Source: Eledone cirrhosa
Lineage: Eukaryota
Direction of reading: 5' to 3'
DNA: 64,000 nucleotides
NCBI GenBank assembly: GCA_964016885.1
Contig: OZ024743.1
Span: 152,830,001 to 152,894,000 of the forward strand
The notes beneath the pieces were generated by a model. It was given only the letters and a program-made list of their open reading frames with translations, was not told the DNA's origin and did not search any database. Position 1 is the stretch's first letter; each line of letters opens with the position of its first letter. This document shows, piece after piece, positions 36,302 through 55,205 of this stretch. The position numbers and the translations under genes were made by a program.

Positions 36302-37286
36302 GTAAATAATGACTGGCTATCATTTCTCTCTGTATATGGAAACATAAGCTTGATTGGCTTCTGATGAAAAGCTTTTAAACAGCTTTACTGCATATATAAA
36401 AAAACAACAAAGTGTGCTTGCACTTATTTATACTCACGATGAGGCTTAAAACTATACTTATATTTGTACTTATATCTACATTTTAATTTTCTAAAAAAAA
36501 ACAATAAATAATTGTTTCTACTTTTGGCACAAGGCCAGCTATTACCCAGTGCATTACTGGTACTTTATTTTATCGACCTCGTAAGGATGAAAGGCAAAGT
36601 TAACCTCGGCGGGAATAAATAATGATAGTAATCTTCTTCTAGCAAGGAAAATTGTTGATGATAATGATGACATACATATACATATATATGTAAAGTTATG
36701 TTTGTATACATATAGAGTGGGTAACCAAGACTTCTCCATATGTAGGCATGTAAACATGCCAGAAAATACAATGCCCTTGCAAACTGAATTAATTTTCAGA
36801 TGTATTTGACCCTTATTAGAAAGTATGTTTACCATCCAAACAATCACAAGGAAACATTTATTTGAAGGGCATATATAACCATTCACTCTTATTATTATTC
36901 TGAAATGGACATACTAATTTGCATATAATTAATGGTCATGTTGGTAATTAATTAAGATATATATTAAGAGTGCACAAGCATCTGAAGTGTGTGTATATAT
37001 ATATATAATGATGATGTCATGTATATGTATATATATATATATATATATATATATATATATATATATATATATATATATATATATATATATATATATATAT
37101 ATATATATATATATATTAAAAATTAGGATTGGTGCTCTGAAATAGCGATGTATACATGAATGTATGTATAGTATATTTGGTAATATACTGTATGTTTAAT
37201 TAAAAACATTTTGAAGACCTTGTGCTATTATTTTAAAGTAGTGACTATGTCACTTACTAATTTTTTCAGCAAAGGAAGGGAGAGAA

Positions 37287-37327
37287 GCTGACAGATTCTG
37301 TTTCACACTGTTGGTGTTCCTCAGAGC
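37287..37327 (-). ncRNA. Minimal type-I hammerhead ribozyme
   Basis: gct CTGAGGA ACAC caaca GTGT GAAA CAG aat CTG TC agc; GUC triplet. Confidence 0.8.
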
Positions 37328-37537
37328 AACGTACTCGCTGATCTGCCGAAAATTATAGAGGCTGGATTCTATAGAATTTCAGTAATAATCAGGAACTTAT
37401 TATACAGAGCGATTGCCTTCCTTTGCTGAAAAAATAGGTAAGTGACATAGTCCCTACTTAAAAATAATAGAGCAAGGTCTTCAAAATGTTTTTAATTAAA
37501 CATACAGTATATTACCAAATATACTATACATATATTC

Positions 37538-38008
37538 GGCATACGTCAAAACGGCCAGTCTCAAAAGTGAAACTAATTTTTGACAGTTACGTACACGTTA
37601 TAAGAGTTATTTAAATTTATATATATAAAATAAAGGAGCAAATAAGAGCATGATATGAAGTCAGTCATGTGTGTGTGTATATATGTGTGTGTGTGTGTAA
37701 ACGAATGTAAAAGAATATATGTAGGGCATAGATAAGGTTTCCTAGAATTTTACACACATACACATATATACACACACACGTGTATATATTATAGTGTGTA
37801 TGTGTGCATATATAAGTGTATATGTGTGTGTATTTTTACATTCGTTTACACACACACACACATATATACACACGCACATGACTGACTTCATATCATGCTC
37901 GTATTTGCTCCTTTATTTTATATATATAAATTTAAATAACTCTTATAACGTGTACGTAACTGTCAAAAGTTAGTTTCACTTTTGAGACCGGCCGTTTTGA
38001 TGTATGCC
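37538..38008. mobile_element. MITE with about 175-nt TIRs and a 9-bp TSD (MULE- or Merlin-like)
   Basis: GGCATAC...GTATGCC termini; TSD CATATATTC at 37529-37537 and 38009-38017. Confidence 0.9.
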
Positions 38009-38569
38009 CATATATTCATGTATACATCGCTATTTCAGAGCACCAATCCTAATTTTTAATTTTTGCTGGACCGGCAATCGCTCTGTATAATCAGTTCCTG
38101 ACTATTATAATACGCGCACGTGTATATATACACACATTTTGAGTATTACAATTAAAATGAATAAGAATTAAAAACTAAAAATTCAAGATTTAAAATTAAG
38201 TGTTGAGGCAAGTTTTTTCATCTTCCTTGTTGAGAAGGAGACTGGAAAAATGGAATCCTGTGTATATAAAGAGAGGCGTAGTCATGGTAGTACCAGCAGC
38301 AGTGATGGTAGTTGTATTTTTTCACTCAGAACAAAATTATTTTAAGAAGGAGACATTCTGTAAATATGTATATCTCAATTGTATTAATGGACTGGTCAAC
38401 AGTTCAGATGGGTGTAGCAAAGAGGGGAATTGTAAGCTAGAGACAAATACTATGGGATTGGCAACAGTAGTATATATATATATGTGTGTGTGTGTATGTG
38501 TGTGTTTTACTATAAATACAAACATACACACACACACACACAGACACGAGCACACATATATATAACTGG

Positions 38570-38925
38570 TTGGTGTAAGCAGCGTTGGGTACATGGGAAG
38601 TCGAGTCTTTTGAATTACTGTGTGACACTAGAGGTCACGGTCGTGTGTCATCACCCTTGAGAGGTGCAATTGGATAAGGTCGGCTTTTATCACCTTATCC
38701 CAGTTCTTCTTGGGTCTCCCCACTCTGCGGCTTCCATTGACTTCTAGTGCTCTGCATCTTTTTATGCAGCTGTCATCCTTCATATGCATCCCATGTCCAT
38801 ACCAATGTCACCTCCTCTCCTGCACACAGCATTTGATTCCTCTTATACTCAGTCTCTCTCTCAATTCGTTTATACTTTGCTGTTCGCGTATATTACTATT
38901 ACACATCCATCGGAGCATGCAGGCT
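38570..38925 (-). mobile_element. RTE 3' coding/UTR fragment
   Basis: Homologous to 10200-10470 (ACMLRW, LRWYGHV-like thumb). Confidence 0.7.
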
Positions 38926-52821: not shown

Positions 52822-53254
52822 TGTTAGCTAGCTACCTCACCGTGAAACAAACAACCCTTAAAATCCACCAGAATAGAACGCCTACGCAGCGGCTAAACAT
52901 AAAACGATTATTTCTGTATAAATAGAGTGGTTCCAAACACTTTCGCCAGTCGACTTTGGCAGAGTCAACTCGCGTATCGTTGTTCTTCCCCTCTGCCACG
53001 CTTGTCACTCACACACGCCTTGTACCTTGTATCGTCGCTTCATGTGAAAATAAATAGCTGATCGAAACTACATCTCTCGCCTTGCTCGTCCTTTCAACTT
53101 GTGCTTTCGTCTGTCCATCCTTACCGTATGTGACAACAGTTCTTTTAAGAGCTATCTTCAGATCTGATCAGACCGTATGCGATAACAGTCCTTCTAAGGG
53201 CTATCACGGATCTGATCAGAAGTAGTGACCAGACTGACTAACCACGTCGCTACA
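52822..53254 (+). mobile_element. Possible solo LTR or LTR end
   Basis: TGTTAGC...GCTACA termini, TATAAATAG at about 52917, AATAAA at about 53049, an internal about 49-nt tandem pair at 53124-53220; no clear TSD. Confidence 0.35.
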
Positions 53255-53539
53255 TATATATATATATATATATATATATATATATATATATATATATATA
53301 TATATATATAAGTATAAATTCAGCGAGATTCGCATTTCGGCGAGTAGAAAAAACGTAACGCAAATTCCGAGTCATGCTGTCAAGGGATCCATGGGATAAA
53401 AAAGATCAGAGCAATAAACATAGGTTATAAAGGCCATACAAACTGAGAAGGCAGTCAAGAAGCCATGTGTGTGTGTGTAAAAGGTAAACAGAAATAACAA
53501 CACATTTGGTACAGTATATGGAAGGAATATATTAGGACG

Positions 53540-54290
53540 ACGATTTCGAAAGCCATTTCCTTCATATATCTTCTTGCTTTATCCAGCGTGGATAACCCCC
53601 CACCCTGAACCAAGCTGCTCTTACCCTTGCCCGTGAAACCAACCGTACCACAGCTCTTTCACCTCACCAGCGCCGTCCCAACACCCACCTTCCTTTCCCT
53701 TTCCCCTACCAGCCCATCACCCTACCCCTCCGGCAACATATCTTCTGTTCCTAACGCACCCTCTCTTCTGACCCCGTCGCTTCTTTTTTTCCTAGCCCAC
53801 TTATTAGCACATTTAAGCGCACCCGTAACCTCCGAGACCTCTGGTACGTAGTTCCTTCTCGTCGTCTATAACGACTCCATCCGGCGCTCATCCTTGTTCT
53901 CGTCCCTCTGCTACACTTGTCCTTTCCTTTACACCTTCACCACTCTCACAGGCACTAACGGGTCATTCCATATCCGGCACTCCTTCACCTGCACTTCCAT
54001 CCACGTTGTCTATGCCCTCCAATGTTCCGTTGAGGGCCCTTATACATCGGATAAACGGGACGCCATTTGGCGGACCGTTTTGCTGAACATTTGAAGGATA
54101 TACGTCTCAGTATGGATACTACTGTCACCCGTCAATTTTGTTCCCCATGTCATTCATCCATATATGACTCCTGGGTGTTTTTTTTACCAATCACAGGCTT
54201 CGCTCCCCAGGACTGAACAGAGTCTGATTTACCGCCTTGGGTCCTGTTTCCCTCATGGACTCAACTCCCCTCCTCAATTTCATTAATACC
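53540..54290 (+). mobile_element. PLE GIY-YIG fragment (Neptune-like), frameshifted
   Basis: GSFHIRHSFTCTSIHVVYALQC..YIG*TGRHLADRFAEHLKDIR...LIYRLGSCFPHGLN. Confidence 0.82.
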
Positions 54291-54919
54291 CCGTCCATTA
54301 TCACGCACGCGCTTATACATTCACCCCTAGATTCCTATGGCTCTCTTATGTTCAGAAACATATATTCTTACAGCTAATACAGACCAGCAAAATACGCACA
54401 CTCCGCTTTTCCCTTCACAGCTTTGTATATACACACACTCATACACACACACACCTTATAGTAACATACTTTTGCTCATAGCTTCGTACTTACAAGTACA
54501 CTTATATATACACACACATATCCTCTTAGCTTCGTACGGACGTATAATAACACACACACACACGCGCGCCCGTGCGCGCACAAGTATAGCTCTTTGTACA
54601 AAACGTTTTTTTTTAAAGGTAGATAGAAATAACGAAGCACATTGAAGAAATATATTAGTTTAACGCTTGAAATAACAGGAAAATAATCTAGTATTTCATC
54701 AGAAGATAAAATAGAAAGATAAAAAGTGAGAAGAGGAAGGCACAGAAAACACGAGAAAAAAATCTCATGTGTGTCAGCCATTTTGGAGATTTTCTGGTCA
54801 AGGGTATCTTTTTTGTTAGAGAGGTTTAGGAAGGAAGTAATCATTTTATATTGGACATGTATGTTTGGTGTGTAAGCTTGCCTCTGTGTGTTTCGTACTT
54901 TTGGTACTTATTAAAGCTC

Positions 54920-55205
54920 ACTACTCCTTCTGTTTGCTGAAAAGTATGTGTGTTGGATTCTTATAGAATTCCAGTAACAATCAGGAACTGATTATACAGA
55001 GCGGTCGCCGGTCCAGCAGAAATTGAAAATTAGAATTGGTGCTCTGAAATAGCGATATATATATGAATGTATATATGAATGTATATACAGTGTATTTTGC
55101 AATACACTGTATGCATAATTAAAAATATTTTGAAGACCATACGCTATTGTTTTAAAATAGTGACAATATTTAAATTTTCAGCAAACAGGGGAGCTCTGAC
55201 AGTTT
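54920..55205 (-). repeat. Third copy of the 315-320-nt hammerhead family, starting near the cleavage site
   Basis: GGATTC.TATAGAATTCCAGTAA.AATCAGGAACT..GGTCCAGCA..GGTGCTCTGAAATAGCG..TTCAGCAAAC..CTGACAG. Confidence 0.72.

What the first reader, a model, noticed from the sequence alone, without database searches (positions are those of the whole stretch)
37116..55205. A 315-320-nt hammerhead family in three different circular permutations
Copies at 37.1-38.1, 46.5-47.0 and 54.9-55.2 kb share one cyclic sequence order but start at different points, as expected from a circular or multimeric RNA template. Stem II differs while staying paired (ACAC/GTGT versus ATGC/GCGT). The inverted arm at 37416 and the 55.2-kb copy both begin within about 10 nt of the GUC site. 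Three loci in 18 kb imply a high copy number.
Basis: partly seen in the sequence, partly recalled or inferred. Interest (0 to 1): 0.75.

Follow-up and report, generated by a model that had tools for sequence, protein, structure and literature searches.

The report
Penelope-pasted hammerhead retrozyme, two fixed starts
These are three worn copies of a 316-base non-coding repeat that carries a predicted self-cutting RNA motif and occurs thousands of times in this animal genome; most copies end at one of two fixed points 34 bases apart, the footprint of Penelope-type jumping genes, which likely paste it in from a circular RNA.

Summary
The three loci are real: one 315-318-nt cyclic unit with a type I hammerhead, in three subfamilies whose stem II and C3-G8/U3-A8 core pair covary. 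Exact motifs occur 1,614 and 2,952 times genome-wide. But permutation is not free. In 88 motif-anchored loci, 78 arms end at one of two sites, 131-132 and 165-166 nt past the cut, mostly before (TA)n; 5' ends scatter; 45 loci have a second, inverted arm, and 30 of 33 classifiable pairs use one site each. That is the Penelope-like 'tail' footprint. 70 of 90 arms run through the ribozyme junction and 47 of 88 exceed one unit, so the template was a circle or an uncut multimer; 5' ends do not pile up at the cut. The window copies look permuted because of 5' truncation and three atypical 3' ends. No partner Penelope element and no RNA data were found. Verdict: new member of the animal non-LTR retrozymes, likely mobilised by Penelope machinery. 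The scan noted this mechanism before on other DNA of this genome.

The parts
37028..37116 (.). (TA)n target microsatellite at the 3' end of arm A1
37115..37417 (-). Locus A main arm, subfamily A, unit 186>316>166/173; 3' end at site S2 (about 37122)
   Evidence: 96% to the subfamily reference; loose ends at 37122 and 37151
37264..37352 (-). Type I hammerhead with extended stem I; CUGAGGA starts at 37324, stem II ACAC/GUGU, predicted cut between 37290 and 37289
37416..37537 (+). Locus A inverted arm, first part, unit 11>130
37538..38008 (.). Later, unrelated palindromic MITE with a 9-bp target duplication (37529-37537, 38009-38017); not part of the family
38009..38107 (+). Locus A inverted arm, second part, unit 122>220 (atypical 3' end)
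46526..47014 (+). Locus B, subfamily B, unit 147>316>about 136-140 (3' end near site S1; alignment may extend to about 47029)
46605..46789 (+). Later SINE-like insertion with a target duplication of about 11 bp; at least 8 more pieces in the window
46828..46918 (+). Type I hammerhead; CUGAUGA at 46858, stem II AUGC/GCGU, predicted cut after 46891; fold z -5.6
54889..55193 (-). Locus C main arm, subfamily C, unit 8>308 (atypical 3' end inside stem III); damaged U3-A8 core at 54914-54908
55191..55213 (+). Locus C 23-nt inverted arm, unit 309>13 across the cut site, one mismatch to the subfamily; with the main arm it makes exactly one lap
   Evidence: read by eye
55214..55260 (.). (TA)n flank of locus C

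Best explanation
This is a non-coding 315-318-nt repeat with a predicted type I hammerhead whose copies end at two fixed sites 34 nt apart, and it is likely a retrozyme pasted into (TA)n DNA by the reverse transcriptase-endonuclease of a Penelope-like element, most likely from a circular RNA. Steps: (1) inferred: the few loci that hold two whole hammerheads are transcribed, self-cleave to a monomer and are ligated to a circle, as shown for coral, mussel and axolotl retrozymes. (2) Inferred from the ends: a Penelope-type enzyme nicks both strands of an AT-rich target and primes reverse transcription inside the RNA, at S1 (131-132, edge of an AC-rich hairpin loop) on one strand and S2 (165-166) on the other. 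(3) Shown: copies run 5'-ward through the GUC junction for 0.3-2 units, rarely 3.5, and stop at scattered points. (4) Shown as structure, inferred as process: the two cDNAs are joined head to head, giving an inverted two-armed insertion with the 34-nt tail on one side. (5) Shown for A and B: later insertions erode copies; inferred for C: deletion or atypical priming. Confidence about 0.85 for Penelope-type mobilisation from junction-spanning RNA, about 0.6 with the circle included.
For: Two fixed 3' ends: 78 of 88 arms, p about 1e-55; 76 of 88 arms with a called end in a partly overlapping second sample; spacing 34 nt, inside the 30-40-bp Penelope tail that maps to two internal RT start sites in an AC-rich stem-loop (PMC11167929). 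45 of 88 loci two-armed; 30 of 33 pairs with both ends classifiable use one S1 and one S2, p 6e-7; tail on one end and an inverted 5'-truncated copy are listed Penelope traits (PMC8557442). (TA)3 within 12 nt of the end in 57 of 88. 70 of 90 arms cross the junction. Variants shared within a locus exceed between-locus controls: successive laps 11.5% v 3.1%, opposite arms 20.8% v 2.9%. Hammerhead covariation: C3-G8 201, U3-A8 82, mismatched 14, other 14 of 311; 3 of 4 stem II pairs change on both sides. Hairpins at S1 keep pairing across subfamilies. 10 of 189 arms hold two whole hammerheads. The stop rate rises from 0.115 to 0.28 per 20 nt after one lap, as strand displacement on a circle would give. 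Several Penelope-like families with (TA)n-flanked two-site ends exist in this genome.
Against: No autonomous partner found: none of 80 Penelope-like loci, nor a further family's 3' end, shares sequence with the unit above shuffles. No RNA evidence for expression, cleavage or circles. The one purified Penelope enzyme uses unprocessed RNA and does not need cleavage (PMC11167929), so an uncut multimer fits as well. The rise in stop rate also follows from finite linear templates or from later deletion of long repeats; arm sharing can come from gene conversion. 29 of 189 arms, and 3 of 5 arms in the window, end elsewhere. At least 3 of the 10 two-hammerhead arms are chimeric or belong to related families. 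Covariation reflects a few inherited events in three lineages, on 22 hand-picked intact copies. The A>G excess in stem I (3.2% v 1.4%) falls to p 0.03 once three recurrent sites are removed. Samples are the first listed exact matches on contig C1 and lean to younger copies.
Confidence: 0.6

Rival explanations
1. Same Penelope-type mobilisation, but the template is an uncut linear multimer or read-through transcript from a few tandem source loci; the hammerhead is incidental to insertion.
For: The Anolis enzyme uses unprocessed RNA and ribozyme mutants insert normally (PMC11167929). Arms rarely pass two units (1 of 88 above 640 nt). The stop rate rises with length. 8 of 9 Xenopus dimers did not cleave in vitro (preprint 10.64898/2026.07.22.740005). 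L186 is a 3.5-unit array.
Against: Repeated copying of finite linear sources shortens each generation, yet three subfamilies 12-18% apart persist with the hammerhead kept by compensatory change. No long homogeneous source array of A, B or C was seen among the loci fetched (not a census).
Confidence: 0.28
2. The copies are 5'-truncated ends (solo pseudo-LTRs) of an autonomous Penelope-like element not yet found.
For: All end features match Penelope insertions; Xenopus retrozymes are homologous to pseudo-LTRs (preprint).
Against: Arms longer than one unit continue into the same unit, up to 3.5 laps, not into a reading frame; longest ATG frame 32-45 codons; no homology to the Penelope 3' ends sampled. 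The search for a partner was not exhaustive.
Confidence: 0.06
3. One reading: freely permuted insertions of a circular, viroid-like RNA primed at random points or at the cut site.
For: Cyclic order; 133 distinct 5' positions in 189 arms; locus C covers exactly one lap with both ends near the cut.
Against: 160 of 189 3' ends at two sites; 3 of 189 within 10 nt of the cut; no excess of 5' ends at the cut; hammerhead pattern on one strand only at loci A and B.
Confidence: 0.04
4. DNA-level spread (MITE, Helitron or satellite excision and reinsertion).
For: Inverted arms look like terminal inverted repeats; microsatellite flanks.
Against: The arms differ in length and end at different sites, 5' ends scatter, and the conserved structure is an RNA ribozyme; a true MITE in locus A shows the contrast.
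Confidence: 0.02

Closest known systems
Metazoan non-LTR retrozymes (coral, mussel 350-390 nt, axolotl 331/353 nt: PMC7229834, passages, section 14 and Discussion read; vertebrate survey: preprint 10.64898/2026.07.22.740005, parts 1-3 of 5 read, supplements not seen)
   Same: About 300-nt low-GC non-coding unit, one type I hammerhead per unit with palindromic stem III, thousands of copies, co-occurring with Penelope-like elements; monomer-rich families are reported.
   Different: Mostly dispersed 0.3-1.5-unit copies, half of them two-armed and inverted, not tandem arrays. The parts read propose Penelope mobilisation from co-occurrence and pseudo-LTR homology but give no insertion-end census; circles are shown there, untested here.
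Penelope-like elements with endonuclease (Poseidon of Anolis, PMC11167929, parts 1-2 of 4 read; Neptune, Naiad and others, PMC8557442, passages read)
   Same: Two internal 3' ends 30-40 nt apart, AC-rich hairpin at the start site, tail on one end, 5' truncation, partial tandems, inverted 5' copy, AT-rich targets, hammerhead in the repeat.
   Different: No reading frame; no sequence homology found to any sampled Penelope 3' end in this genome; start sites lie 131-166 nt past the cut, against about 85-92 for the first site in Anolis (111-118 from the start codon, cut at 26).
U3-A8 hammerhead variants of Penelope-like elements (PMC4209133, part 1 of 4 read)
   Same: Subfamily C has U3-A8 in place of C3-G8; a Neptune-like family in this genome has it too.
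   Different: Here the swap sits in a non-autonomous unit with a 4-bp stem II and a long extended stem I.
Young 310-nt tandem hammerhead family of the same genome (L127, L161, L235; probably the family of earlier scan notes)
   Same: 68-69% identical over the whole unit, same S1 end and hairpins.
   Different: Near-identical tandem units and a different hammerhead; A, B and C are older (median 4-6% from their majority) and mostly shorter than two units.

Membership tests
Metazoan non-LTR retrozyme | Type I hammerhead in each unit | tested here: met
   Motif, fold and covariation; no Rfam hit at E<=1; locus C's own core is damaged
Metazoan non-LTR retrozyme | Unit of 150-400 nt, GC under 45%, non-coding | tested here: met
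   315-318 nt, GC 34-38%, longest ATG frame 32-45 codons
Metazoan non-LTR retrozyme | Tandem copies with two or more hammerheads | tested here: met
   At family level only: 10 of 189 arms, about 7 after removing chimeric ones; L186 has 3.5 units. None of the window copies has two
Metazoan non-LTR retrozyme | Self-cleavage of the transcript | not testable with these tools
   Needs in vitro transcription
Metazoan non-LTR retrozyme | Expression as a circular monomer RNA | not testable with these tools
   No RNA run was available
Penelope-type insertion footprint | Two 3' ends 30-40 nt apart, tail on one end | tested here: met
   34 nt; 78 of 88 arms; 30 of 33 pairs use one of each
Penelope-type insertion footprint | 5' truncation, partial tandems, inverted 5' copy | tested here: met
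   133 distinct 5' ends in 189 arms; 47 of 88 over one unit; 45 of 88 two-armed
Penelope-type insertion footprint | AT-rich or microsatellite target | tested here: met
   (TA)3 within 12 nt in 57 of 88, any microsatellite within 3 nt in 60 of 88; no background rate computed
Autonomous Penelope-like element | RT plus GIY-YIG frame attached to the repeat | tested here: not met
   Long arms continue into the unit; 80 Penelope-like loci lack the unit as their 3' repeat; not exhaustive
Non-autonomous partner of a named Penelope family | Shared 3' sequence with an autonomous element | tested here: inconclusive
   No alignment above shuffles for 6 families; one family ends at a similar AC-rich hairpin, p 0.24-0.93
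MITE or DNA transposon | Fixed symmetric terminal inverted repeats and target duplication | tested here: not met
   Arms of unequal length ending at different sites
Viroid-like replicating RNA | Ribozymes in both polarities | tested here: not met
   Strict pattern scan found the motif on one strand only at loci A and B

The most novel reading that the evidence does not exclude
A Penelope-type enzyme dimer binds one covalently closed 316-nt ribozyme circle, starts two cDNAs at fixed sites 34 nt apart from the two ends of a DNA break, and must displace its own product after one lap. The one-site-per-arm rule, the shared variants, the 2.4-fold rise in stop rate after one lap and the exactly one-lap locus C would be the genomic record of circle-templated retrotransposition, proposed for retrozymes but not shown in the papers read.
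Probability: 0.35. Interest if true: 0.75.

Novelty: new member of a known kind. Interest (0 to 1): 0.5.

Why it matters
How animal retrozymes get back into the genome is proposed, not shown, in the papers read (PMC7229834; preprint 10.64898/2026.07.22.740005). The ends of this family carry the two-site tail that a purified Penelope enzyme makes, on an RNA with no gene and no detectable homology to sampled Penelope ends. That names a 316-nt substrate, two exact priming sites and a target, so trans-mobilisation and circle versus linear template can be tested in the existing in vitro assay. The family also shows the start-site hairpins and the hammerhead kept by compensatory change across four lineages up to 32% apart. 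As a locus it is ordinary: three eroded copies among thousands.

Tried and rejected
Rfam scan: no hammerhead family, only microsatellite-driven miRNA hits. RNA runs: no RNA holder listed; three runs of one sample, kind unknown, were laid as contigs: they show loose ends at 37122 and 37151 running into (TA)n, but may be the assembly's own sample and say nothing on expression. Best-hit searches are biased to the query's permutation, so end counts use motif-anchored samples instead. Partner search: two Penelope-like families from the window, top GIY-YIG hits and one candidate 3' end gave no homology; the unit-like hits in those loci (L161, L253, L330) are separate insertions beside them. ADAR-editing scars: inconclusive. 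Pile-up of ends at the cut: not found. Pile-up at exactly one lap: not clear (13 events, rate 0.17 between 0.115 and 0.28). The reciprocal copy-number calibration (0 of 32) is biased by how loci were fetched and was dropped. The generic hammerhead regex missed this family and was not used. The flank of locus C is an older repeat, 70-78% to its relatives, and did not settle why C ends at 308. A bacterial promoter scan is irrelevant. Literature searches listed no paper on this family or on insertion-end censuses of retrozymes; the library lacks most subscription journals and Repbase, and bioRxiv supplements were not seen.
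Full report
Observation. The three loci align to each other in one cyclic order. I cut unit references from related loci and numbered them from the base after GUC. Locus A: 37115-37417 minus, unit 186>316>173, then an inverted arm on the plus strand, 11>220, interrupted by a 471-nt MITE with a 9-bp target duplication. Locus B: 46526-47014 plus, 147>316>about 140, interrupted by a SINE-like element. Locus C: 54889-55193 minus, 8>308, with a 23-nt inverted piece (309>13) read by eye at 55191-55213. Units are 316, 315 and 318 nt, 82-88% identical, 34-38% GC, with no ATG frame above 45 codons.

The ribozyme. Rfam returned no hammerhead at E<=1. A pattern scan found type I cores at 37324 and 46858. 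Folds give the expected three stems on a long extended stem I; z was -5.6 for B, -7.8 and -8.5 for two C-type copies, but only -1.2 for the mutated window copy A. Stem II is ACAC/GTGT, ACGC/GCGT or GTAC/GTAC by subfamily. Positions 3 and 8 are C-G in 201, U-A in 82, mismatched in 14 and other in 14 of 311 copies; U3-A8 is a published variant (PMC4209133, part 1 read). On 22 hand-picked intact copies 95.6% of cells pair and 7 of 23 pairs change on both sides, above shuffled and slid controls; these are a few inherited events, not 22 tests. Stem III is palindromic or nearly so, which by that paper favours dimeric folding. Cleavage is predicted, not shown; locus C's core has lost G5.

Copy number. 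The host is a 3.0-Gb animal assembly; earlier scan notes call it a cephalopod, which I did not test. Exact motifs occur 209, 1,614 and 2,952 times, reversed controls 0. 46 of 115 arms that cover the third motif match it exactly, so at least about 7,000 unit pieces exist. Median distance to the subfamily majority is 4.3-6.2% (sample includes best hits): the family is not very young.

Ends. Because best-hit searches favour the query's permutation, I took 88 loci from the first 100 listed exact matches of a mid-unit motif, all on contig C1 (same-place pairs merged, 5 not fetched). The motif-bearing arm ends at S1 in 48, at S2 in 30 and elsewhere in 10; 14% would fall in these windows by chance. 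The sites lie after unit 131-132 and 165-166, 34 nt apart. (TA)3 follows within 12 nt in 57 of 88. 45 loci have a second arm, head to head: 30 pair S1 with S2, 3 are S1/S1, none S2/S2, 12 have an atypical end; 30 of 33 against an expected half gives p 6e-7. A second motif just downstream of the cut gave 100 matches, 97 aligned, 90 arms after keeping one anchor per arm; 20 of its loci were already held. 70 of 90 cross the junction; 5' ends within 5 nt of the cut number 6 against 4.9 expected; a cluster at +13 to +17 (9 against 2.5) was picked after looking and may be stalling in stem I or trimming of a cleaved minority. Pooled over three motifs, 160 of 189 arms end at S1 or S2, 3 near the cut, and 5' ends take 133 values. 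So the family has fixed 3' ends and free 5' ends. Only 2 of the 5 window arms have a canonical end, which is why it looked freely permuted.

Mechanism. A purified Anolis Penelope-like protein nicks both strands of AT-rich DNA and starts reverse transcription at two internal RNA sites, one in an AC-rich stem-loop; the stretch between is the 30-40-bp genomic tail (PMC11167929, parts 1-2 read). Tail on one end, 5' truncation, partial tandems, an inverted 5' copy and (TA)n targets are listed Penelope traits (PMC8557442, passages). All are met here. S1 lies at the loop edge of an AC-rich hairpin, and this and the hairpin before it keep pairing through changes in subfamily C and in a 310-nt relative (AT-rich, weak evidence). 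Penelope-like families in this genome show their own two-site, (TA)n-flanked ends. I infer mobilisation in trans. The partner is unidentified: 80 Penelope-like loci and one further family gave no homology above shuffles.

Circle or multimer. A cleaved linear monomer would give copies of at most 132 or 166 nt ending at the cut; most copies are longer and 47 of 88 exceed a unit. Successive laps share variants at 11.5% and opposite arms at 20.8%, against about 3% between loci, so both come from one source; that does not separate a circle from a homogeneous multimer, and conversion can add to arm sharing. The stop rate per 20 nt is 0.115 at 180-305 nt and 0.28 at 327-470 nt, in S1 and S2 arms alike; displacement of the first cDNA on a circle predicts this, but so do finite templates and later deletion. 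10 of 189 arms hold two whole hammerheads, at least 3 doubtful, so loci able to release a monomer exist. Locus C covers exactly one lap in twin-priming geometry, a single case beside a palindrome. An A>G excess confined to stem I (126 of 3,902 against T>C 75 of 5,345) rests largely on three sites; without them p is 0.03. Against the circle, the Anolis enzyme prefers unprocessed RNA. I put the circle at about two to one.

Known systems. The unit meets the testable features of animal non-LTR retrozymes (PMC7229834, passages, section 14 and Discussion), whose circles were shown in coral, mussel and axolotl and whose mobilisation by Penelope-like elements was proposed. A 2026 preprint (parts 1-3 of 5) adds co-occurrence and pseudo-LTR homology, reports monomer-rich families and lists mobilisation mechanism as future work. 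Six searches listed no insertion-end census for a retrozyme; coverage is limited. Earlier scan notes describe the same footprint for 310-, 422- and 467-nt families and one 318-nt U3-A8 copy in this genome; I had the two-site reading before seeing them, and they are not independent support. A 310-nt tandem family in my loci is 68-69% identical to A-C.

Verdict. Observation partly confirmed; interpretation partly supported. New member of a known kind, with useful genomic evidence on an open step. Interest 0.5.

Noticed in passing
window 49830-50950, minus: A separate tandem hammerhead family, about 422-426-nt period, 2.6 units, core at 50560 with palindromic stem III, ending in (TA)n; the second core has a 4-nt insertion. 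Probably the 422-nt family of earlier notes.
   Followed up: partly
window 33029-34766, minus: Broken Penelope-like element (GIY-YIG just under the Pfam cut-off); a very high-copy family whose copies have a minimal hammerhead and two 3' ends about 60 nt apart.
   Followed up: partly
window 41370-43633: Young two-armed Penelope-like insertion: 734-nt inverted repeats at 99.6%, GIY-YIG frame 42168-42962, an oversized hammerhead-like motif, ends about 146 nt apart, both in (TA)n; relatives at 95-99% protein identity with open frames near 784 codons.
   Followed up: partly
window 37538-38008: Young palindromic MITE with 9-bp target duplications (Mutator-like, label recalled), 646 first-look candidates, relatives 97-99% identical. 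Other palindromic elements at 49488-49786, 55911-56180, 40855-41003.
   Followed up: partly
L329-L356 (GIY-YIG hits): A Neptune-like family (label from recall) has a U3-A8 hammerhead with a 4-bp stem II and A-rich loop like subfamily C, and two ends about 40-45 nt apart; no sequence homology to the unit.
   Followed up: partly
L381-L410: A Penelope-like family whose 27 displayed copies all end right after an AC-rich hairpin shaped like the S1 hairpin; similarity not above shuffles, and the query ended there.
   Followed up: partly
unit 29-36 and 162-206 (window 37253-37259 and 37122 region): A splice-donor-like GTAAGT, a branch-point-like CTAAT at S2 and a T-rich tract; no spliced copy was noticed. 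Untested.
   Followed up: no
L127:1-958, L161:3172-3863, L235, L220:388-739: A young 310-nt tandem relative and a further diverged subfamily sit next to family copies, sharing (TA)n targets.
   Followed up: partly
window 3122 and 40925, minus; 46448: Further short hammerhead-like motifs in other repeats; a related motif recurs in many fetched loci.
   Followed up: no
window 25602-28463 minus; 3801-7708: Broken LINE-type reverse transcriptase frames (Pfam RVT_1), the second as a 1.5-kb inverted pair.
   Followed up: no
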